Below are positions 9,211 to 33,664 of a stretch of 64,000 nt of DNA, piece after piece. The notes beneath the pieces are model-generated. The model saw only the letters and a list, made by a program, of their open reading frames with translations. It was not told where the DNA came from and made no database searches. The stretch is from the NCBI RefSeq assembly GCF_058153355.1, contig NZ_CM177019.1. One strand, 5' to 3'. The translations under genes were made by a program, and so were the position numbers. Position 1 is the stretch's first letter; each line of letters opens with the position of its first letter.

Positions 9211-9335
9211 TGATGACTCCGGTTAACGATATCAGGTTATTGGCAAAAGGCGTGCCAATAATTTTTATGTGAATAATCAATAGATTGAAAAATGGGCGGA
9301 AAGCGTGTTTCCGGTTCGGCGGAAAAGTGCCTGCC

Positions 9336-9371: not shown

Positions 9372-10881
<1,510 letters not shown>

Positions 10882-10987
10882 CATGCCTGCAATCTGGGAA
10901 ACCGGGGTAGAAAAAAACTTGCAGGCCATAACAGTATCTACGGGTCCGCACCTGTTTTTATGCGTCTGCCCGTTTGTAGGCCCGAAC

Positions 10988-11902
10988 TTACTGCAGCAGG
11001 CTGGAAACCATGCTGGACATGCTGTTGGACTGTTTCAGCATGGTAATACCGGTCTGCATCAGCACCTGCTGTTTGGTCATGTTGGACGCTTCCGTCGCGT
11101 AATCGGTATCCATAATGTTGCCGATAGCGACTTCGGTGTTGTCCTGCATGCTGGTCAGGTTGTTTGCGGTGTCGTTCAGACGGTTGATAGACGCACCCAG
11201 CTTGGACTGGATCTGCGAAACATCATCCATCGCGGTAGAAATGCTGGTGATCATCTGGTTAGCCGAGCCAGATGCGGTCAGTTCAGTACCGCCAGAAACG
11301 CCTGCGGTGCCCGTGGTGTCAGCCTGATCCGCACTGAAGGAGTTGCTGATAGCAGAAAGATCCGTCACCAGCGTGTTCAGCTGGCTTGAAATATTCACGG
11401 TCATGGTGTCGGAAGATTCCGCTCCCACCTGGAAAGTTACTGCGCTCTGGAACAGACCGTCAGTACCGGTGTTGCTGGTACCGGAAACACCGAACAGGTT
11501 GGTGCCGCCATAAGTGGTGTTTTGCAGCATGTCAGACATCTGCTGACCCAGTTCGTCGTATTCGTCCTGCATCGCCTGCAGATCGTCGTCGCTGTAGGTG
11601 CCGTTCGCTGCCTGAGTTGACAGGTCTTTCATACGACCCAGCACATCAGACATTTCATCGAACATACTGTCGGCGGTTTGCAGCATCGCCGTTGCATCAT
11701 TAATGTTGCTCAGTGCCACACCCATACCGCTGGACTGTGCAGTCAGACGGTTAGCAATCTGTTTGCCTGCGGCGTCATCGGCAGAAGAGTTAATCCGGTT
11801 ACCTGTTGCCAGGCGTTCCATAGATGTAGACAAAGAAGAGCTGCTTTTGCTGATTGCATTAACGGCGGCCATTGAGGCGTTATTGGTGTTAATAGATAAC
11901 AT
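10988..11902 (-). CDS. lafA: Lateral flagellin
   Basis: ORF with flagellin N-terminus (MLSINTNNAS...RINSSADDAAGKQIANR) and conserved C-terminus; AAGGAG RBS before ATG at 11902; the track ORF extends to 12001. Confidence 0.85.
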   Translation of the reverse strand: MLSINTNNASMAAVNAISKSSSSLSTSMERLATGNRINSSADDAAGKQIANRLTAQSSGMGVALSNINDATAMLQTADSMFDEMSDVLGRMKDLSTQAANGTYSDDDLQAMQDEYDELGQQMSDMLQNTTYGGTNLFGVSGTSNTGTDGLFQSAVTFQVGAESSDTMTVNISSQLNTLVTDLSAISNSFSADQADTTGTAGVSGGTELTASGSANQMITSISTAMDDVSQIQSKLGASINRLNDTANNLTSMQDNTEVAIGNIMDTDYATEASNMTKQQVLMQTGITMLKQSNSMSSMVSSLLQ

Positions 11903-16849: not shown

Positions 16850-17042
16850 GTTGGATCCTTACCGGTAAATCGTGCCGGTTAAAAGCGGCGTGAAGTTGGA
16901 GATTCTTAAGTTCCGTAAACCGGGCGCCAGACACCGGATGCAGCCTGCATACGGGCACAAACATAAAAATATGTGCGAACTCGTAGATACTGTTATGGCC
17001 TGCAAGTTTTTTTCTACCCCGGTTTCCCAGATTGCAGGCATG

Positions 17043-18269
<1,227 letters not shown>

Positions 18270-18307
18270 TGATAAGCGTAGCGCATCAGGCAATCTGGCA
18301 CCAGACA

Positions 18308-19766: not shown

Positions 19767-19871
19767 TGCTTATTGAAAACTGATCCCCATTTCTTGCGCC
19801 ACTCCCGCTTCAATCCGCATACGCTAAGCAATCGCTGCGCCAATTTTTAAGTAACTGATGAGAAAGGGTTT
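19767..19871. promoter_or_regulatory. Divergent intergenic control region between the rod/hook operon and the FlgA/FlgM/FlgN-like operon
   Basis: 105-bp gap between divergent operons; promoter elements not resolved. Confidence 0.3.
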
Positions 19872-20978: not shown

Positions 20979-21407
20979 GTGAGTATCCGGTTACAACAGG
21001 TGAAGGCGTTGTTGCAGGGAATTCGTGACGACGACGCACTGTACGATTCCCTGCGCGAACTTCTCCAGCATCAGCGGATCTGCATGATTCGCCGCGCCAG
21101 CGAAGAGTTGCTGGCAGTAAACGACGAGATAACGCAGCACTATGAGCAGTTGCATGGGCATAGCCATCAGCGGCACAGCCTGCTGCAACTGCTGGGTGTC
21201 AGCGTAAATCGTGACGGTCTGGCGCAGGTTTTCGCCTGGCTTCCGGCGGTACAAAAAGCGGCAGCACAACAGTTGTGGCAACGCCTGGAGCAAAAAGCGG
21301 AACGCTGCAAAGCCTATAACGATAAAAACGGCGAGCTGTTGATTCGTCAGTATGAATTTATTCAGTCGTTTTTAGGCAGCGAAGCAGATTTTCTGTATCA
21401 GGAATAA
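20979..21407 (+). CDS. lfgN: FlgN-like export chaperone
   Basis: 142-aa helical ORF directly after the FlgM-like gene. Confidence 0.65.
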   Translation: MSIRLQQVKALLQGIRDDDALYDSLRELLQHQRICMIRRASEELLAVNDEITQHYEQLHGHSHQRHSLLQLLGVSVNRDGLAQVFAWLPAVQKAAAQQLWQRLEQKAERCKAYNDKNGELLIRQYEFIQSFLGSEADFLYQE

Positions 21408-21494
21408 CGCGAATACCTTCCCCATAGCGGAAACGGATTTTCCGCCTGATTTCCAATCCTTTGTTTTTGATTAAAAAAATTCCCGGCACGCTTA

Positions 21495-22463
21495 TTGCAG
21501 ATTCCGCAAAGGAATAAAGACTGGAAGCCTCCTATGAGTTTTATTGAATGTTACGAACCGGAATATGTGCGCAATTTTATGGCGCAATATCCCGATTCGC
21601 CTTTATACGTCAGCAAGGTGTGGAAGAATGAGATTCGCCAGAGCCTGGCATTGACCGATATTGCCAGTTGCAAAGCAGTGCTCAACGATGCCAGGGCCTT
21701 TGAATTACAGCTTACCTATCGCCCTGTGGAAGAAAATGCCGCAGCGCTCTCCGCGCGCGATGTGATAGTCAACCAGATAATTTTGAGCACCCTCACGCTC
21801 CCCGATTTAACCCCAGAGCTTTCACTGTATGCCGTCGGGATTTTGCTCTCCCGCGCCCGTAAAATGCCGGGCAGAGACGGCGATACTCTCGCCCGGCTGA
21901 CAGCACTGCCGCAGGCGCTGGCCGATCACGCCCAAATAGGCACGTTACAGGCACAGTTCGCCCAGCTACCGCCTGTGCCACTGCTGGCGCGCCAACTGGT
22001 GACGCTGCTCGGGAGTTTTGCATTTGACTGGTCGATACTGCCAGAAAGCCCGCGCAAAAATTCGCTGCCGTTGCAGGTAACCTTGCTAACGCTGCATGAC
22101 GCCAACAGCGAAGCCCTGATGCAGCAGCAGCTACAGACACAGTGGCAAACTACCTGGCAACAGCATTTTGCCACCGCTCCGTGGATGATGCGTAACTGGC
22201 TGATTTACCGGGTTTATCACGATGTGATTGGCCAGGCAGACGGGGCGGGTTATTTCCCGCTGGTGTGTGACTTTTACCTCATCCGCACGTTAATCAGTTT
22301 ATGGACGCTGGATGATTCACCGCTGCGGCAGGAGGATATTTTCGCCCTCTTCGCGGTGTTTGAACGCTGGCGAGTGAGTGAAAATGCCGTGCTGATTCGC
22401 CAGCAAATTCAGTCATTATGTGCCGCCGACCCGCTGCTTTCAGCGTTTTCGTTGCTGCCGTGA
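21495..22463 (+). CDS. Hypothetical protein inside the Flag-2 locus
   Basis: 322-aa ORF with no motif I recognise; codon usage resembles neighbouring flagellar genes; start may be at MSFIECYEP (21534). Confidence 0.45.
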   Translation: MQIPQRNKDWKPPMSFIECYEPEYVRNFMAQYPDSPLYVSKVWKNEIRQSLALTDIASCKAVLNDARAFELQLTYRPVEENAAALSARDVIVNQIILSTLTLPDLTPELSLYAVGILLSRARKMPGRDGDTLARLTALPQALADHAQIGTLQAQFAQLPPVPLLARQLVTLLGSFAFDWSILPESPRKNSLPLQVTLLTLHDANSEALMQQQLQTQWQTTWQQHFATAPWMMRNWLIYRVYHDVIGQADGAGYFPLVCDFYLIRTLISLWTLDDSPLRQEDIFALFAVFERWRVSENAVLIRQQIQSLCAADPLLSAFSLLP

Positions 22464-22472
22464 GTCGCTCTG

Positions 22473-22604
22473 TGCGCGCTTTGCCCCTCACCCTAACCCT
22501 CTCTCCAAAGGGGCGAGGGAACCGATCGAGCACGGTGTTAAAATCGGCGCTGGTTTTCTCCCTCTCCCTGTGGGAGAGGGCCGGGGTGAGGGGCATCAGC
22601 GCGC
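22473..22604. repeat. GC-rich palindromic intergenic element with terminal inverted repeats (MITE-like)
   Basis: tgcgcgctttgcccctcaccc at the left end is the reverse complement of ggggtgaggggcatcagcgcgca at the right end; internal palindrome ccctctccctgtgggagaggg. Confidence 0.6.
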
Positions 22605-22651
22605 ACATTCAGCACCTCCATCACATTCACCCACTAACTCACCCAAACACC

Positions 22652-25096
22652 ATGCCAACACCAAGCATCATCAAAACACTCGCCACTCACCGCGAAAAAC
22701 CGTTCGTCAGCGTCGTCACGCCAACCTGGAATCGTGGCGCATTTCTGCCGTACCTGCTCTATATGTACCGCTATCAGGACTACCCGGCAGACCACCGCGA
22801 ACTGGTCATCCTCGACGACTCACCGCAAAGCCATCAACACATCATCGACCGCCTGACCAATGGCACGCCGGAAGCCTTTAACATCCGCTACATCCATCAC
22901 CCGGAAAAACTGCCGCTGGGCAAAAAACGCAATATGCTCAACGAACTGGCGAGCGGCGAATACATCCTTTGCATGGACGATGACGACTATTACCCGGCAG
23001 ATAAAATCTCTTACACCATCGGCATGATGCAAAAACACCGGGCGCTGATCTCCGGTTCCGACCAGATCCCCATCTGGTACAGCCATATCAACCGCATCTT
23101 TCAAAGCCGCAGCTTTGGCCCGCATAACATCCTCAACGGCACCTTTTGCTATCACCGTAACTACCTGAAAAAGCACCACTACGATGATGATTGCAATTTA
23201 GGCGAAGAGAAAAGTTTCACCGACAATTTCAGTGTTAACCCGCTGCAACTGCCCGGCGAGCGCACGATTTTGTGTATCTCGCACAGCCACAACACCTTTG
23301 ATAAAGACTTTATTCTCGGGGCCAGCACGCCTGTAAATGCCGAACTGAGCGATATCGTCACCGATCCGCTGCTACGCAATGCTTATCTGAGTCTGCATAA
23401 CGCCACTCATCACCAGGCGATCAACCATCAGGCGATCGATCAGATAGTTGTTGTGAATCTGGATAAACGCCCGGATCGTTTACGGCAGATCCGTGAAGAG
23501 CTGGCATTGCTGCATATTCCGCCTGAAAAAATTACCCGCCTTGCCGCCTGTGAAGATGAAAACGGCCAACGGGGACGACGCCAGTCGCACTTGCAGGCGC
23601 TGCGCCTGGCGCAACAGCACGGCTGGCAAAATTACCTGCTGCTGGAAGATGACGCGGTTATTCTCAAGCAGGAGAAACATATTCAGGTACTGAACACGCT
23701 GCTGGCGAGCCTGGCGAAAATTCCCTGGGAGGTGATGAGCCTTGGTGGCGAAATTTCGCAAGGAACGATGCTGAAAAGTTTGCCGGGGCTGGTACACGCG
23801 CAGGACTGCCGCAAAGTGTGTGCTTATCTGGTGAACAGCCGCTACTACCCACAACTGGCGCAGCAGATGAGTAACGATGAGCACTCGCTGGAAGACGGCT
23901 GGCAGCCACTGCTGCGCACCGACAAATGGCTGGCCTGTTACCCGAGCCTTAGTTATCAGCGACCGGGCTTTAGTGATATCGAGAAAAAAGCGACTGATAA
24001 CATTAACCACTACTTCAATAAGTTACCCGTAGCCACCAAGCCATCCACATTACCCATCGCCGACACCATCGGCTTTTTTATGGAAACCTCCTTCCACTAC
24101 GCGCTCTATCGCCCAATCATCACCGCCCTACAGGCGCAGGGGCAGAGTTGCACGCTGGTGATCAACGATCGCGTGTTTAAACCATTTTTGGGTGAAATGC
24201 TGGAAACACTGAAAAGCATCGACGATCCACAGCTTAAAGGTATGCGCTTGTCTGAGATGCAGGAGCACAGTCAGCGGGTGAAATGCCTGGTCAGCCCCTA
24301 CCACACGCCCGCGCTCAATGGCATTTCACCCGTGAACGTTCGCGCCATGTACGGCTTAGCCAAAGAGACGTGGAACCACGCCGACTGGAACCGTTTTTAT
24401 CAGCGCATTTTGTGTTACAGCCACTACAGCCAGCAGGCACTAAAACATTTCGGTAGCGCAAAAGTGGTCGGCAACCCGCGCTTCGACGCCTGGCATAACG
24501 GCACGTTTGACCGCGCCCTGCCGGAAAATATCCAACCCGATTCCCGTAAACCTACGGTGCTCTACGCCCCCACGTTTGGCGCATTAAGCTCCCTGCCCCA
24601 CTGGGCAGAAAAATTGGGGCGCTTGAGCGGTAATGTAAACCTGATTTGCAAACTGCACCACGGCACCAGCTCGCGCCCGGAAGAAGCCGCATCGCTGACC
24701 CTGGCACGCAGGCATTTAAAACAGCGCACCGACTCCGTCCGCCACACGCTGGCGCTGCTGGCAAAGGCCGATTACGTGCTCACCGATAACAGCGGCTTTA
24801 TTTTCGATGCTATCCACGTTGATAAGCGGGTGATCCTGCTCGACTTTCCGGGCATGACGGAACTGCTCGACGGTGAGAAAAGTTATTCCACACCGGAGAG
24901 CGCCGACCAGCGAATCCGCGAAATATTACCGGTGGCTCATGATATGGCTGAGCTGCGTTACTTATTGTCAGAGGCGTTTGACTGGGGGGCGGAACAGGCG
25001 CGGCTTACGGAGATTCGCCATCACTATTGTGACGCGTTTATGGATGGCAAGGCGGGAGAACGGGCGGCGATGGCGATTGTGGAGGCATTGGGTTAA
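22652..25096 (+). CDS. Multi-domain glycosyltransferase: GT2-like N-terminal domain, GT25-like central domain, TagF-like CDP-glycerol glycerophosphotransferase C-terminal domain
   Basis: ATG at 22652 follows the palindromic element; GT-A motifs (VSVVTPTWNRG, DDDD), central VVVNLDKRPDR...LLEDDAVIL, C-terminal VLYAPTFG...VLTDNSGFIFDAI; the track ORF from 22418 runs through the repeat. Confidence 0.65.
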   Translation: MPTPSIIKTLATHREKPFVSVVTPTWNRGAFLPYLLYMYRYQDYPADHRELVILDDSPQSHQHIIDRLTNGTPEAFNIRYIHHPEKLPLGKKRNMLNELASGEYILCMDDDDYYPADKISYTIGMMQKHRALISGSDQIPIWYSHINRIFQSRSFGPHNILNGTFCYHRNYLKKHHYDDDCNLGEEKSFTDNFSVNPLQLPGERTILCISHSHNTFDKDFILGASTPVNAELSDIVTDPLLRNAYLSLHNATHHQAINHQAIDQIVVVNLDKRPDRLRQIREELALLHIPPEKITRLAACEDENGQRGRRQSHLQALRLAQQHGWQNYLLLEDDAVILKQEKHIQVLNTLLASLAKIPWEVMSLGGEISQGTMLKSLPGLVHAQDCRKVCAYLVNSRYYPQLAQQMSNDEHSLEDGWQPLLRTDKWLACYPSLSYQRPGFSDIEKKATDNINHYFNKLPVATKPSTLPIADTIGFFMETSFHYALYRPIITALQAQGQSCTLVINDRVFKPFLGEMLETLKSIDDPQLKGMRLSEMQEHSQRVKCLVSPYHTPALNGISPVNVRAMYGLAKETWNHADWNRFYQRILCYSHYSQQALKHFGSAKVVGNPRFDAWHNGTFDRALPENIQPDSRKPTVLYAPTFGALSSLPHWAEKLGRLSGNVNLICKLHHGTSSRPEEAASLTLARRHLKQRTDSVRHTLALLAKADYVLTDNSGFIFDAIHVDKRVILLDFPGMTELLDGEKSYSTPESADQRIREILPVAHDMAELRYLLSEAFDWGAEQARLTEIRHHYCDAFMDGKAGERAAMAIVEALG

Positions 25097-25108: not shown

Positions 25109-25205
<97 letters not shown>

Positions 25206-25422
25206 CGAACAGCGCACTTATCTACCCTTCGATTTTAAATACATCTCTTTATGGCTGGTGAATCGGTAAAGTCGTAGATTGTGGGGGAGCGATCTTTATG
25301 AATTCTGAAAAAAACCTGAATCTTGCTAAACATATTGCTTATCATAAATATAGGTTACACACTATAAAAATTACTGCGTAATTTAACATTTTGTCTAAAA
25401 ATGATAGAGCATAAACGATAAC

Positions 25423-26244
25423 ATGACTTATAATAAAAAAGTAACTTCCGGTACAACAAGCCAGAAACAAAACAACATTGTCACTCAAAAAATATCTCGC
25501 CCAAAGGAATTGTTTCTATTATTTTGGGTTGATGAGTCCGATGATAGCCGACGTTCTATTTTTGAAGAAGCATGTCTGACGCGTTATTTCAATATCCTTT
25601 ACTCCCCCGAGTATAAAAAAGAAACACAGATAGTTTATCATTTATCAATTAACACATTTAATCAAATCAAAGAAATATTAGAAATCTTTATAAACAAGAA
25701 TGGAGGTAAAACTAAAGCAAAGGTTAAAGAAGTCAGTTTATTCTCACATGGGGGGCCAATTCATGGTCCTACAACCTCAAACTCTATAAATACACCTTCC
25801 GTGCCTAAATACCCACAACAAATGGACATATCCGGAGGATGGGATTCAATTGATTTTAACTGGTCAAACAATGCTATGTTTGTTATGTATGGTTGTCGCA
25901 CTAGTTATGCAAGTGATGATTCAGGACAAGGTTTTGCCAGTAAATTATCCCTATTAGATAATTTTAAGGACGTGAATGTCTGGGGTCAAACAGAAAGTAC
26001 TTATCCATCTTATTTCCCAGATATCAGGACAACGTCGATTATGAGGTCAATAAATATAGGTTGGTCTTTTTCACCAACATACATGGTTGCCAATTCTGAA
26101 GGTCAAGGATGGGATGCATTATTCCCGGATGATCGAAATCCATTAAAAGCTCTCCCTATGCAGTGTTATAATAATGGGACATTGATTTTAACCTGCGATC
26201 AAAGCAATTTTAATGATCACCGGAAGAATAAATCAAATGATTAG
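25423..26244 (+). CDS. Hypothetical protein, AT-rich gene embedded in the flagellar locus
   Basis: 273-aa ORF; strongly AT-biased compared with flanking genes; no motif recognised with confidence. Confidence 0.5.
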   Translation: MTYNKKVTSGTTSQKQNNIVTQKISRPKELFLLFWVDESDDSRRSIFEEACLTRYFNILYSPEYKKETQIVYHLSINTFNQIKEILEIFINKNGGKTKAKVKEVSLFSHGGPIHGPTTSNSINTPSVPKYPQQMDISGGWDSIDFNWSNNAMFVMYGCRTSYASDDSGQGFASKLSLLDNFKDVNVWGQTESTYPSYFPDIRTTSIMRSINIGWSFSPTYMVANSEGQGWDALFPDDRNPLKALPMQCYNNGTLILTCDQSNFNDHRKNKSND

Positions 26245-26791
26245 CATTGTATTGAGAAGCATTGTATTGAGAAGCTTTATTTTATTATTCATAATAATAG
26301 TGTATCCGGATTATAATAAAAACCCACCTGCCTTTGAAGTATATGGGGAAAATGACATACTTAAGGATATGGTTATTAATATGAAAACTTATAGATACCA
26401 TAGTAGGGAAAACTCTTCCCCCACAGCTATAGTGCAAACCATCCTTTTTAAAGGAAATATACAGCAAGTTTTTGAAAGCAATGACATGGGTGGTGCGAGC
26501 TTCTTTTTTTCTTATAACAATAAGGTTGAAACGCTGGTAACAGACGCTTTCTTTTTAAATAAAAAATTAGACAAACTGCATGATGCAAATATTTTTGAGG
26601 TTATAAAGCATAAGGAAAACATCGTTATTAGATATTACAAGTGCAAAATTGAATATATGCAAAGAGAAAAATTTATCGAAATAGAGATATCAACAAACAA
26701 AAATAGTTATTTTAACAAGAATGGAATAAAACAAAAAGATACAAATAAATATAACACATATTTCTTCAATTACTTTGAGTCTCAAAAATAA
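26237..26791 (+). CDS. Hypothetical protein with hydrophobic N-terminus, AT-rich, coupled to the preceding ORF
   Basis: ~184-aa ORF (MISIVLRSIVLRSFILLFIIIVY...), 8-nt overlap with the upstream ORF; the track ORF begins at 26213. Confidence 0.45.
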   Translation: MISIVLRSIVLRSFILLFIIIVYPDYNKNPPAFEVYGENDILKDMVINMKTYRYHSRENSSPTAIVQTILFKGNIQQVFESNDMGGASFFFSYNNKVETLVTDAFFLNKKLDKLHDANIFEVIKHKENIVIRYYKCKIEYMQREKFIEIEISTNKNSYFNKNGIKQKDTNKYNTYFFNYFESQK

Positions 26792-26794
26792 ATT

Positions 26795-27199
26795 TTATTT
26801 TGTCATGCGCGCCCTCCTAATCACCTCAATAATCCCCGTCGTCGACACTGACGGCGTGCGGGGGAAATAGACCACCTCACAAATATACGCGAAGCTATCA
26901 AACTTCCCCGCCCAGTCATCGCCCATCACCAAAACATCCGCACTGTAACCGCGCAGATATTCCGCTTTCAGCGCCAGCGATTCCTCGAGAAATACGCCAT
27001 CCACGCACGCCAGCCCGGCGATAATCGCCATGCGGTCATCCTGAGGGTAAACCGGTGCCCTGCCCTTTTTAGCAATGTTCAGGGCGTCAGACGATACGCC
27101 GACCAGCAGCCGTTCGCCCAGCGTGCGGGCGCGTTGTAAAAGGAGCAGATGACCGACATGAAACACATCGAAGGTGCCGAAGGTGATGACCGTTTTCAT
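26795..27199 (-). CDS. Cytidylyltransferase, TagD-like (glycerol-3-phosphate cytidylyltransferase family)
   Basis: Start MKTVITFGTFDVFHVGH (HxGH nucleotidyltransferase motif); 2 nt after the FliJ-like stop, so probably co-transcribed with lafK-lfiEFGHIJ. Confidence 0.7.
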   Translation of the reverse strand: MKTVITFGTFDVFHVGHLLLLQRARTLGERLLVGVSSDALNIAKKGRAPVYPQDDRMAIIAGLACVDGVFLEESLALKAEYLRGYSADVLVMGDDWAGKFDSFAYICEVVYFPRTPSVSTTGIIEVIRRARMTK

Positions 27200-27201
27200 G
27201 G

Positions 27202-27636
27202 CTACTCCGCTAATTTGTGCCGTAGCCAGCACTGAACGGCGATGTCATCCACCGCTTTTTGCGCTTTCGCCGTGGCACTTTCTTGCTGCTCGCGGCGTTT
27301 GTCATCCAGCGTCAGGGCCACCACTTTCTCTTCGCATGCCGCCGCCGTCAGGTTTTTCTGCATTCGCGTAGCCTTGATGTTAGCCAGCGTTTTTTCCTGC
27401 TCCTGCCAGGCGATCACTTTGCGCAAGGTGCCTTTGTAGCCGCTGACGTTTTTCAGCGATTCCACCGACGCCGCCGCGCCCGCAGATGTTTTCTCCACCA
27501 GGTAGCCTAACGCTTTGATATTGTTGTCATAGCCCGCGCAAATCTGTTTTTGCTTTGCCAGCTCGACGGTTTTGTCTTTGACCGATTTATCCCGCAGGCG
27601 CTGCAATTGCGCGAGGGTGTCGATGATTTGTCGCAT
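27202..27636 (-). CDS. lfiJ: FliJ-like export apparatus protein
   Basis: 144-aa coiled-coil ORF downstream of the FliI-like ATPase. Confidence 0.7.
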   Translation of the reverse strand: MRQIIDTLAQLQRLRDKSVKDKTVELAKQKQICAGYDNNIKALGYLVEKTSAGAAASVESLKNVSGYKGTLRKVIAWQEQEKTLANIKATRMQKNLTAAACEEKVVALTLDDKRREQQESATAKAQKAVDDIAVQCWLRHKLAE

Positions 27637-32677: not shown

Positions 32678-33664
32678 TCAGGAGAAAACTTCGATACCGT
32701 GCTTGCGCATGGAGGCCAGTCGATAGCGCAGGGCGCGCGGGGTAATGCCTAACAGGTCGGCGATTTTGCTGCGGTTGCCCTGATATTTGCGCATCAGGTC
32801 GGCGATATATTGATACTGCGCGCTTCGTCCGTGCTGGCCTAAATCGCCGGTTTCGGCAATGTGGACGGCGGGCTGAACAGGCCATTGCAGTTCACTGTGG
32901 TCAGCAATATCGGTGTCCGGCAGGCCTAATGCATCCGGGTAAATTACGCCGTCGCGATTTAAAATCATTCCCCGCTGAATGGCGTTTTCCAGTTGGCGCA
33001 CGTTACCGGGCCAGCGGTAATTAAGCAGCGCGCGGCGGGTAGATTCGGACAGGGTGATATTTTTCACCAGTACCGTGGAGTATTTTTTAATAAATGACTC
33101 TGCCAGCGGAATAATATCGTTCAGGCGTTCACGCAGTGGCGGCATGGTAATAGGGATAACCGCCAGACGATAATAGAGATCTTCACGAAAACGTCCGGCG
33201 GCAACTTCCTGATCCAGTTTTTTATTGGTGCAGGCAATCAGGCGAAAATTGAGTTTGATTTGTCGGTTGCTGCCTAATCGCTCAACCTGTTGTTCCTGCA
33301 AAACGCGTAATATTTTGGCCTGTAGCGCCAGCGGCATTTCACCAATTTCATCGAGTAATAAGGTGCCGTTATTTGCCAGTTCCATTTTTCCTGGCACGCT
33401 GGCAATTGCGCCGGTAAATGCACCTTTGTCGTAGCCAAATAACGTCGATTCCAGCATATTTTCCGGGATCGCCGCGCAGTTCACGCCGATATAGGGCGCG
33501 TTATCATTTTCACCAAAGGCTACGGTGTGAATATATTTCGCCACGCACTCTTTCCCCGCGCCGGTTTCGCCCTGAATCAGGACCGGCACGTTAAAGGCGG
33601 CGACACGCTTTGCCAGAGTAAAAGCGTTTATGCTGGAGGCGGCAGATGCAATAAGTTCAGACAT
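32678..33664 (-). CDS. lafK: Sigma-54-dependent transcriptional activator with AAA+ and HTH domains only, no N-terminal receiver
   Basis: 328-aa ORF; Walker A GETGAGKE near the N-terminus, GAFTGA-like region, C-terminal Fis-type HTH. Confidence 0.8.
   Translation of the reverse strand: MSELIASAASSINAFTLAKRVAAFNVPVLIQGETGAGKECVAKYIHTVAFGENDNAPYIGVNCAAIPENMLESTLFGYDKGAFTGAIASVPGKMELANNGTLLLDEIGEMPLALQAKILRVLQEQQVERLGSNRQIKLNFRLIACTNKKLDQEVAAGRFREDLYYRLAVIPITMPPLRERLNDIIPLAESFIKKYSTVLVKNITLSESTRRALLNYRWPGNVRQLENAIQRGMILNRDGVIYPDALGLPDTDIADHSELQWPVQPAVHIAETGDLGQHGRSAQYQYIADLMRKYQGNRSKIADLLGITPRALRYRLASMRKHGIEVFS

What the first reader, a model, noticed from the sequence alone, without database searches (positions are those of the whole stretch)
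21495..22463. Unknown 322-aa gene co-oriented with the FlgA/FlgM/FlgN-like genes
This ORF follows the FlgN-like gene on the same strand and matches local codon usage but has no recognisable flagellar motif. It may be a locus-specific accessory factor such as a chaperone or modification enzyme.
Basis: seen in the sequence. Interest (0 to 1): 0.35.

Follow-up and report, generated by a model that had tools for sequence, protein, structure and literature searches.

The report
LafV: FliB-like gene lacking iron-sulfur domain
This is the already named lateral-flagellar gene lafV, usually labelled a flagellin lysine methylase, but it lacks the iron-sulfur domain that enzyme needs and always sits beside a glycosyltransferase, so it more likely assists flagellin glycosylation.

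Summary
The ORF is real, but its start is mis-set. The CDS is 21534-22463 (309 aa).

The gene is lafV, a catalogued gene of Flag-2 variable region 1. NCBI labels it "lysine-N-methylase".

LafV residues 26-309 are homologous to residues 110-401 of the flagellin methylase FliB (hhalign probability 99.9%). LafV lacks the roughly 90-residue cysteine-cluster domain of FliB. That domain holds the CX4CX3CC [4Fe-4S] ligands that experiments showed to be essential for methyl transfer. None of FliB's 8 invariant cysteines is kept. LafV scores 38 bits on NCBI's FliB model, whose cut-off is 85.

The gene is still under purifying selection (dN/dS 0.12-0.20, like its neighbours). In 30 of 30 loci it lies next to the same GT2 glycosyltransferase, even where gene order changes. 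The cognate flagellin LafA has no lysine in its central region (residues 93-233).

My best reading is that LafV is a non-catalytic FliB-derived partner of the flagellin glycosylation module (confidence about 0.4). The annotated methylase role is doubtful but not excluded.

In this window Flag-2 is itself decayed: lfgE-lfgJ are deleted next to an IS element.

Overall this is a known gene of modest interest with a probable annotation over-reach.

The parts
21534..22463 (+). lafV coding sequence (309 aa plus stop). It is a FliB_C-only protein.
   Evidence: Homologues start at this ATG and are 308-315 aa. Precomputed Pfam PF27117 FliB_C. hhalign against a FliB profile gives probability 99.9%, with LafV 26-309 matching FliB 110-401. 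dN/dS is 0.12-0.20. The AF2 model has mean pLDDT 90.4.
21495..21533 (+). It is not coding; it holds the promoter -12 element and the 5' UTR.
   Evidence: No homologue includes these 13 codons. The TTG is part of the conserved TTGC -12 element.
21484..21499 (+). Sigma-54 type promoter, cGGCAC-N5-TTGCA (GG-N10-GC).
   Evidence: One mismatch to TGGCAC-N5-TTGCW. GGCA[CT]-N5-TTGC is kept in 27 of 28 orthologous loci although the surrounding intergenic sequence is not alignable between genera. Function as a promoter is inferred, not shown.
21427..21445 (+). Short hairpin just after the lfgN stop (GCGGAAA-loop-TTTCCGC), possibly the end of the lfgAMN transcript.
   Evidence: Centroid fold -8.8 kcal/mol, not significant on its own (z -0.36). 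A hairpin at the same place is visible in most orthologous loci. The terminator scan did not call it. Weak evidence.
22478..22600 (+). Long palindromic intergenic repeat between lafV and the glycosyltransferase gene.
   Evidence: MFE -79.3 kcal/mol, z -7.9. Part of it (22551-22618) matches places in 4541 of 5426 E. coli genomes. It is absent from E. fergusonii, where the lafV-GT gap is 54 nt.
22652..25096 (+). 814-aa multidomain glycosyltransferase and constant neighbour of lafV. It has an N-terminal GT2 domain and a C-terminal region with weak similarity to a CDP-glycerol glycerophosphotransferase.
   Evidence: Pfam GT2 at E 5.9e-18; Glyphos_transf at E 0.0017, below threshold. Orthologues lie next to lafV in 27 of 27 loci. 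The GT2 and Glyphos_transf parts are separate genes in Paramixta.
26795..27232 (-). Cytidylyltransferase (TagD-like, CTP_transf_like) at the far edge of VR1. It is a likely member of the same modification module. The start codon is uncertain.
   Evidence: Pfam PF01467 at E 1.3e-18. Conserved next to fliJ in most loci. It overlaps the lafV stop by 4 nt in Paramixta.
20979..21407 (+). lfgN (FlgN-like export chaperone), the upstream neighbour.
   Evidence: Pfam FlgN at E 2.1e-18.
32678..33664 (-). lafK-like sigma-54-dependent activator, the candidate regulator of the lafV promoter.
   Evidence: Syntenic with the RefSeq-annotated 'sigma-54 interaction domain-containing protein' of locus L001. The regulatory link is inferred.
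10988..11902 (-). lafA, the lateral flagellin and presumed target of the modification module.
   Evidence: 100% identical to the annotated LafA of L001. It has 6 Lys, none in residues 93-233, and that stretch is 29% Ser+Thr.

Best explanation
The ORF is lafV. It starts its own sigma-54 (LafK-type) transcription unit, lafV then glycosyltransferase, inside variable region 1 of the Flag-2 lateral-flagella locus.

LafV descends from the flagellin lysine methylase FliB. It keeps FliB's first ~16 residues and its whole helical C-terminal domain (FliB_C). It has lost the ~90-residue YkgJ-like cysteine-cluster domain that binds the [4Fe-4S] cluster FliB needs for methyl transfer.

I therefore read it as a non-catalytic FliB derivative. 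It would keep the binding or scaffolding role of FliB_C, towards flagellin, its chaperone complex or the membrane-proximal platform. It would act as a partner of the adjacent GT2/TagF-like glycosyltransferase and TagD-like cytidylyltransferase, which decorate the Ser/Thr-rich surface region of LafA.

Shown here: gene identity, the start codon, the domain loss, purifying selection, constant pairing with the GT, and the conserved promoter motif.

Inferred: that FliB_C is a binding rather than a catalytic domain, that LafV works with the GT, and that LafA is the target.

In this particular strain the system cannot work, because lfgE-lfgJ are deleted.
For: Identity:
- 81 homologues, many named lysine-N-methylase or lateral flagellar associated protein, all carrying PF27117 FliB_C.
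- LafV is described in Flag-2 VR1 (PMC6993521).

Domain loss:
- A HMMER scan of 1.84 billion representatives gives three classes: long FliB of 385-450 aa with CX4CX3CC at residues ~17-27; short with CxCxxC; and short without cysteines, which is the window's type.
- MAFFT and hhalign place LafV 1-16 on FliB 1-16 and LafV 26-309 on FliB 110-401.
- The 8 invariant FliB cysteines are C17, C22, C26, C27, C80, C89, C104 and C126. None is kept; C126 aligns to D42.
- C17/C22/C26/C27 bind the [4Fe-4S] cluster, and the quadruple Ala mutant is inactive (PMC8598068).
- NCBIfam FliB model: true FliBs score 157-286 bits; LafV-type proteins score 38-77 bits, below the 85-bit cut-off, and match only profile positions from about 103 onward.
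- Only the long class matches Pfam CxxCxxCC.
- No cysteine-cluster ORF exists anywhere in the 64-kb window.

Still functional: dN/dS is 0.12-0.20 in 14 pairs, and lengths are constant.

Link to the GT:
- lafV is adjacent to the same GT2 orthologue in 27 of 27 loci and in 3 further loci.
- This holds where the order is GT then lafV with a 14-nt overlap, convergent on flgN (L003).
- It holds where lafV sits between GT2 and TagD/TagF-like genes with a 4-nt overlap (L032).
- It holds where the module lies between two lafA copies without flgN (L025).
- By contrast, flag-1 FliB loci generally lack glycosyltransferases (PMC4875605), and two long FliBs examined lie outside flagellar loci.

Substrate:
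- FliB methylates lysines of the exposed D2/D3 domains (PMC7181671).
- E. coli LafA has no lysine between residues 93 and 233.

Conservation: positions shared by all three classes are mostly hydrophobic or structural (P9, S37, L40, L50, L98, N221, Y225, F232, P233, L307, L308). No shared charged cluster appears.
Against: - No experiment exists on any LafV.
- Nobody has mapped which part of FliB binds SAM or flagellin, so 'FliB_C is a binding module' is an assumption.
- LafV alleles differ greatly (65% identity in the E. fergusonii type) while LafA is 100% identical and the GT 95% identical. There is thus no co-variation signal with either proposed partner.
- Some LafA proteins do carry a few central lysines (L025: K147, K190, K220).
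- Gene adjacency shows a shared pathway, not physical interaction.
- The sister short class keeps CxCxxC and could still bind metal, so the ancestral short LafV may have been an enzyme.
Confidence: 0.4

Rival explanations
1. LafV is what the databases call it: a lysine-N-methylase that methylates the lateral flagellin (or another flagellar protein). It would use SAM without FliB's N-terminal [4Fe-4S] domain, or borrow a cluster domain from another protein.
For: Clear homology to FliB over 284 columns. NCBI names the protein lysine-N-methylase. The 2020 survey treats LafV as a FliB orthologue. The SAM-binding site of FliB is unmapped. LafA still has 6 lysines. Purifying selection shows the protein does something.
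Against: All four cluster ligands and all 8 invariant cysteines of FliB are absent. The cluster is essential for FliB activity. LafV scores below the equivalog cut-off (38 vs 85 bits). No cysteine-cluster ORF lies in the window. LafA has no central, surface lysines. The invariable pairing with a glycosyltransferase is unlike flag-1 FliB.
Confidence: 0.2
2. LafV is an enzyme of another kind within the glycan pathway, for example a transferase or modifying activity on the flagellin glycan. Its FliB-derived helical domain would have been recruited for new chemistry.
For: It is embedded in an operon between GT2 and TagD/TagF-like genes in Paramixta, with overlapping stop and start codons. It is under strong purifying selection. 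Class-specific invariant polar residues exist: R35, N80-Q81, R174-K175, D189/N191/S192, R226, D260, E277.
Against: No similarity to any catalytic fold. These polar residues are not shared with the other two classes. An all-helical architecture with a small beta-sheet gives no cofactor motif.
Confidence: 0.15
3. LafV is a FlgN-associated export or assembly accessory (chaperone-like factor) of the lfgAMN unit, as its position after lfgN suggested to the first reader.
For: It is co-oriented with and directly downstream of lfgN in Escherichia, Citrobacter, Phytobacter and Leminorella. No strong terminator lies between them. FliB is proposed to receive flagellin-FliS complexes near the membrane.
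Against: It has its own conserved sigma-54 promoter. It is convergent with flgN in Serratia sp. M24T3 and in metagenome locus L033. flgN is absent from the neighbourhood in L025 and L032. The constant neighbour is the GT.
Confidence: 0.1
4. LafV is a decaying remnant of fliB with no present function.
For: It has lost the catalytic domain. In this window the Flag-2 locus is itself broken, with lfgE-lfgJ deleted next to an IS, so here the gene has no working flagellum to serve. It is the fastest-evolving protein of its neighbourhood.
Against: dN/dS is 0.12-0.20 across Escherichia and Citrobacter, equal to the flanking structural genes. There are no frameshifts or stops in the 14 orthologues translated, and lengths are constant at 308-315 aa over 40-97% identity. 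The promoter motif is conserved.
Confidence: 0.05

Closest known systems
FliB, flagellin lysine-N-methylase of Salmonella enterica (NCBIfam NF038110; [4Fe-4S]- and SAM-dependent; PMC8598068, PMC7181671)
   Same: Homologous over LafV 26-309 = FliB 110-401 (hhalign probability 99.9%, E 8.6e-36), plus the first ~16 residues. Both are encoded in flagellar loci near flagellin-related genes, and both are cytoplasmic proteins with no other recognised domain.
   Different: LafV lacks FliB residues ~17-109, the YkgJ/CxxCxxCC-like domain, and with it all 8 invariant cysteines and the essential CX4CX3CC cluster site. It scores below the family cut-off. It is always paired with a glycosyltransferase, whereas flag-1 fliB usually stands alone. 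Its cognate flagellin has no central lysines.
LafV (LafV1-LafV10) of enterobacterial Flag-2 variable region 1 (De Maayer et al. 2020, PMC6993521)
   Same: This is that gene. It has the same position (VR1, next to lfgN) and the same genera, and database names include 'lateral flagellar associated protein'.
   Different: Nothing differs in the gene itself. The published description treats LafV as a FliB orthologue implying flagellin methylation. The loss of the cluster domain and the obligatory GT pairing are not mentioned in the passages I read.
Short CxCxxC-type FliB_C proteins of Flag-2 loci in Serratia/Rouxiella, Paramixta and Fukatsuia (found here)
   Same: Same length (~300-325 aa), same FliB_C domain, same N-terminal strand, and the same location next to a GT2 in Flag-2 VR1.
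   Different: They keep three cysteines (CxCxxC) where the window's class has [HY]P[DG]SP, plus a cysteine at the FliB C126 column. They could therefore still bind a metal or cluster. They share 23-30% identity with the window protein.
Two-part flagellin glycosyltransferases with a helical flagellin-binding domain (for example Caulobacter FlmG, TPR + GT). Recalled from my own knowledge, not tested here.
   Same: The concept only: a helical, non-catalytic module that recognises flagellin and delivers it to a glycosyltransferase domain.
   Different: No sequence or fold relationship was tested or found. In the window the two functions would sit on separate polypeptides.

Membership tests
FliB flagellin lysine-N-methylase (NF038110 equivalog) | Whole-protein score at or above the curated cut-off (85 bits) over the full-length profile. 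| tested here: not met
   LafV scores 38.0 bits and matches profile positions 106-362 only. Bona fide FliBs score 157-286 bits over positions 1-372.
FliB flagellin lysine-N-methylase (NF038110 equivalog) | N-terminal CX4CX3CC motif (C17, C22, C26, C27) that binds the [4Fe-4S] cluster essential for methyl transfer (PMC8598068). | tested here: not met
   The motif is present at residues ~14-27 of all 48 long-class representatives and absent from LafV. The alignment shows a ~90-residue gap covering it.
FliB flagellin lysine-N-methylase (NF038110 equivalog) | The remaining conserved cysteines (8 in all). | tested here: not met
   Invariant C80, C89 and C104 fall in the missing segment. C126 aligns to D42 of LafV.
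FliB flagellin lysine-N-methylase (NF038110 equivalog) | C-terminal FliB_C domain (Pfam PF27117). | tested here: met
   Precomputed PF27117 on all close homologues. hhalign probability 99.9% to FliB 110-401.
FliB flagellin lysine-N-methylase (NF038110 equivalog) | SAM-dependent methylation of surface lysines of the cognate flagellin. | not testable with these tools
   Indirect evidence only: LafA has no lysine in residues 93-233. FliB targets D2/D3 lysines.
LafV of Flag-2 variable region 1 | Located in VR1, between the lfiJ (fliJ) and lfgN gene clusters of a Flag-2 locus. | tested here: met
   The window order is lfgA-lfgM-lfgN-lafV-GT-...-cytidylyltransferase-fliJ. The order is the same in 26 other loci.
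LafV of Flag-2 variable region 1 | Sequence orthology to proteins named LafV or lateral flagellar associated protein. | tested here: met
   86-97% identity to E. coli proteins. 55% identity to the Citrobacter rodentium 'lateral flagellar associated protein' P0058.
YkgJ / CxxCxxCC cysteine-cluster proteins (PF03692) | A cysteine-cluster domain. | tested here: not met
   No Pfam hit for LafV or the short classes. Sub-threshold hits (17-21 bits) occur only in long FliBs, at residues 17-125.

The most novel reading that the evidence does not exclude
Short LafV proteins are pseudoenzymes. In this reading a FliB methylase lost its iron-sulfur catalytic domain inside the Flag-2 locus, first reducing to a CxCxxC stub and then losing all cysteines. 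It was retained as the flagellin-recognition or scaffolding subunit of a GT2/TagF/TagD glycosyl-glycerophosphate modification system for lateral flagellin. The 'lysine-N-methylase' label on the LafV-type proteins of more than a thousand complete E. coli genomes and many Citrobacter genomes would then be wrong, and FliB_C would be identified as the substrate-binding half of FliB.
Probability: 0.3. Interest if true: 0.5.

Novelty: already known. Interest (0 to 1): 0.3.

Why it matters
The gene itself is catalogued, so the value lies in correction and in a testable idea.

(1) The functional name propagated by annotation pipelines rests on a partial match. That match omits the only part of FliB experimentally shown to be required for catalysis.

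(2) LafV is a natural separation of FliB's two halves. It offers a way to ask what FliB_C does (flagellin recognition, oligomer platform or membrane association), which the FliB biochemistry paper left open.

(3) The conserved set of lafV, GT2, TagF-like and TagD-like genes predicts a glycerol-phosphate-containing glycan on enterobacterial lateral flagellin. No such glycan has been reported in the papers I could search.

For this strain the matter is moot, because the Flag-2 hook, rod and ring genes are deleted.

Tried and rejected
- Pfam scan of the ORF found nothing. The local copy lacks PF27117; the domain came from precomputed annotations.
- A profile search of PDB sequences found nothing below E 0.8.
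- The AFDB50 fold library was not available.
- Reading Ren et al. 2005, the original Flag-2 paper, failed because it is not held. The origin of the name lafV therefore rests and my own knowledge.
It was rerun with the Cys-less class only, so the 23 loci it returned sample only that class.
- I looked for a trans-acting cysteine-cluster partner in the window. Only spurious antisense frames turned up.
- I tested whether LafV divergence tracks LafA. It does not: LafA is 100% identical across LafV alleles of 65-99.7% identity.
- The sigma-70 promoter and terminator scan found nothing between lfgN and lafV.
- Counts of sigma-54 motif matches in the whole window are not above chance. The case for the promoter rests on position and cross-genus conservation.
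- Rfam found no RNA family in or beside the gene.
- The 'relic pseudogene' idea was rejected on dN/dS.

Full report
OBSERVATION

The ORF reported at 21495-22463 (+) exists, 322 aa from a TTG. It lies after genes that Pfam and NCBIfam identify as FlgA, FlgM and FlgN homologues. On the other side of the divergent region are lfgB, lfgC and lfgD. The window aligns at 96-98% identity with the Flag-2 (lateral flagella) locus of E. coli 2020CK-00188, whose RefSeq annotation lists lafU, motA, lafA and the other Flag-2 genes.

The gene is real. A search of 5.8 billion proteins returned 81 homologues, and the full-length ones are 308-315 aa. The 1.8-kb region is present in 1277 of 5426 complete E. coli genomes. 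Nei-Gojobori dN/dS for 14 pairs from Escherichia, Pseudocitrobacter, Citrobacter and Phytobacter is 0.12-0.20. The neighbouring flgA, flgN and glycosyltransferase genes give 0.04-0.18.

START CODON AND TRANSCRIPTION

Every full-length homologue begins MSFIECYEP, which is the ATG at 21534 (309 aa).

The intergenic region contains cGGCAC-GCTTA-TTGCA at 21484-21499, one mismatch from the sigma-54 consensus TGGCAC-N5-TTGCW. I aligned the 140 nt upstream of lafV from the window and 27 other loci. GGCA[CT]-N5-TTGC is kept in 27 of the 28 sequences, including Leminorella and unnamed Enterobacteriaceae where the rest of the spacer cannot be aligned. The exception is L022, where lafV abuts flgN.

A small hairpin follows the lfgN stop (21427-21445). 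It is weak energetically but recurs in most loci. The locus encodes a sigma-54 activator at 32678-33664.

I infer, but have not shown, that lafV heads its own LafK/sigma-54-dependent unit with the downstream glycosyltransferase rather than being the last gene of lfgAMN.

WHAT THE PROTEIN IS

The literature names it. De Maayer et al. [quoted passage not shown] They take them as evidence for flagellin methylation (PMC6993521). NCBI labels most homologues lysine-N-methylase, and all carry the precomputed Pfam domain PF27117, FliB_C.

The match to NCBI's FliB equivalog model is only partial: 38 bits against a cut-off of 85, covering profile positions 106-362 of 373.

An exhaustive HMMER scan of 1.84 billion representatives with the LafV profile found 139 relatives, which fall into three classes:
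- Long proteins of 385-450 aa with CX4CX3CC at residues ~17-27 (48 representatives). One is a Leclercia protein named flagellin lysine-N-methylase whose motif occupies C17, C22, C26 and C27 exactly as in Salmonella FliB.
- Short proteins of ~300-325 aa with CxCxxC at residues ~21-28 (23 representatives).
- Short proteins without these cysteines. This is the window's class, found in Escherichia, Citrobacter, Pseudocitrobacter, Phytobacter and others.

MAFFT shows that all three share the N-terminal strand (I-x-x-Y-x-P-E-[FY]-V). The long class then has an insert of about 90 residues that the short classes lack. Profile-profile comparison aligns LafV 26-309 with FliB 110-401 at 99.9% probability, E 8.6e-36.

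The missing segment is the part of FliB that resembles YkgJ/CxxCxxCC cysteine-cluster proteins (sub-threshold PF03692 hits at residues 17-125 of long FliBs only). It holds seven of FliB's eight invariant cysteines. The eighth, C126, aligns with D42 of LafV.

WHY THE DOMAIN LOSS MATTERS

Wang et al. 2021 showed that FliB carries one oxygen-sensitive [4Fe-4S] cluster bound by the CX4CX3CC motif. The C17A/C22A/C26A/C27A mutant lost both the cluster and all methylation activity (PMC8598068). They also found no recognisable SAM-binding fold elsewhere in the protein.

LafV therefore fails the defining, experimentally supported feature of the family whose name it carries. No other ORF in the 64-kb window has such a motif.

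The presumed substrate does not fit either. FliB methylates lysines mainly in the exposed D2/D3 domains, up to 16-18 sites (PMC7181671). The 304-aa LafA of this locus (10988-11902, identical to the annotated LafA of L001) has six lysines. All six lie in the terminal conserved regions and none between residues 93 and 233, a stretch that is 29% Ser+Thr. This argument is limited to Escherichia, because LafA of locus L025 has three central lysines.

WHAT IT IS ASSOCIATED WITH

In all 27 loci holding a short LafV that I could compare by tblastn, the gene next to it is the orthologue of the window's 814-aa protein. That protein has an N-terminal GT2 domain and a C-terminal region with weak similarity to CDP-glycerol glycerophosphotransferase.

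The pairing survives rearrangement:
- In Serratia sp. M24T3 the order is fliJ-GT2-lafV, with a 14-nt overlap, convergent on flgN.
- A metagenomic locus has the same fliJ-GT2-lafV order.
- In Paramixta the operon is fliJ-GT2-lafV-cytidylyltransferase-Glyphos_transf, with lafV and the cytidylyltransferase overlapping by 4 nt.
- In Enterobacteriaceae bacterium RIT691 the cytidylyltransferase-lafV-GT block lies between two lafA copies, with no flgN nearby.

The minimal E. coli VR1 (strain SRY157) is just lafV, the GT and a cytidylyltransferase.

By contrast, flag-1 fliB islands and glycosylation islands are reported as largely mutually exclusive (PMC4875605). The two long-class genes whose context I read lie outside flagellar loci and away from any GT.

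STRUCTURE

Positions conserved across all three classes are few and mostly structural. I take this as weak support for a scaffold or binding role of FliB_C rather than catalysis.

INTERPRETATION

The evidence settles several points (confidence about 0.95):
- The gene is lafV.
- It is translated from 21534.
- It is under selection.
- It is a FliB_C-only derivative of FliB without the cluster domain.
- It is a fixed partner of the VR1 glycosyltransferase.

The function remains unsettled. My preferred reading (about 0.4) is a non-catalytic partner of the glycosylation module that keeps whatever binding or platform role FliB_C has in FliB.

The rivals are:
- A true methylase working without the cluster (0.2).
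- A different enzyme in the glycan pathway (0.15).
- A FlgN-linked export accessory (0.1).
- A functionless relic (0.05, contradicted by dN/dS).

One result argues against tight partner specificity. The E. fergusonii-type allele is only 65% identical (dS 1.8), while LafA is 100% identical and the GT 95% identical in the same loci.

CONTEXT IN THIS WINDOW

The Flag-2 locus here is broken. The 5.35 kb carrying lfgE, F, G, H, I and J in L001 has no counterpart in the window. Its place is taken by a 1.33-kb IS110-family element (16943-18276). A second copy, 99% identical and inverted, lies at 9648-10981 between lafA and fliD/lafB.

lafV is intact and 99.7% identical to the copy in an otherwise complete locus (L035), so the decay looks recent.

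VERDICT

This is a known gene. The one point worth carrying forward is that the standard annotation (lysine-N-methylase) is not supported by the domain content, and that the gene behaves as part of a glycosylation module.

Noticed in passing
window 16943-18276 (-) and 9648-10981 (+); deletion junction near 16986/18265: Two 99% identical inverted copies of a 1.33-kb IS110-family element (326-aa transposase). One replaces the 5.35 kb that carries lfgE-lfgJ in intact loci. The other sits between lafA and fliD/lafB beside REP-like 87-nt repeats (9399-9690). The Flag-2 system of this strain therefore cannot build a hook, rod or rings.
   Followed up: partly
window 22478-22600: A 120-nt near-perfect palindromic repeat lies between lafV and the glycosyltransferase gene (MFE -79.3 kcal/mol, z -7.9). 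Part of it recurs in 4541 of 5426 E. coli genomes. It is absent from the same spacer in E. fergusonii and Citrobacter. It could attenuate or stabilise the lafV-GT transcript.
   Followed up: partly
L006 8001-8927 and L034 2310-3236 (E. fergusonii-type allele) versus window 21534-22463: lafV alone is 65% identical (dN 0.26, dS 1.8) in loci whose flanking genes are 95-100% identical (dS 0.05-0.19; LafA 100%). This looks like a gene-sized allelic replacement by recombination. No reason for it is known.
   Followed up: partly
window 22652-25096 (+) and 26795-27232 (-): The constant partners of lafV are a GT2 fused to a TagF-like (Glyphos_transf, weak hit) region and a TagD-like cytidylyltransferase. 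These are separate genes in Paramixta (L032). Together they suggest a glycerol-phosphate-containing modification of lateral flagellin, which I did not find described.
   Followed up: partly
window 25423-26791 (+): Two low-GC ORFs (35-39% GC; 273 aa with a weak DUF4347 hit, and 192 aa) are inserted in VR1. They are absent from the E. coli comparison loci L001 and L004 and are probably horizontally acquired cargo.
   Followed up: no
window 9242-9257 (-), 19827-19842 (-): Further one-mismatch sigma-54 consensus sites lie directly upstream of the fliD/lafB and lfgB operons. This is consistent with LafK/sigma-54 control of several Flag-2 units. Whole-window counts are not above chance.
   Followed up: no
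L025 6241-13517 (Enterobacteriaceae bacterium RIT691): The cytidylyltransferase-lafV-GT block lies between two copies of lafA that each match window LafA at 79% identity, with no flgN upstream. This is the most direct positional link between the module and flagellin.
   Followed up: partly
L007 (record titled Pseudocitrobacter vendiensis) and L021 (record titled Chryseobacterium sp. 18061): The L007 locus is 95-99% identical at protein level to the Escherichia window. The L021 record bears a Bacteroidota name but holds an enterobacterial Flag-2 locus. Both may reflect recent transfer, mislabelling or contamination of the assemblies.
   Followed up: no
window 25174-25210 (+): A sub-threshold Rfam hit to naRNA4 (40.2 bits against a gathering score of 59.5), a REP-derived sRNA family, lies downstream of the glycosyltransferase gene.
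   Followed up: no
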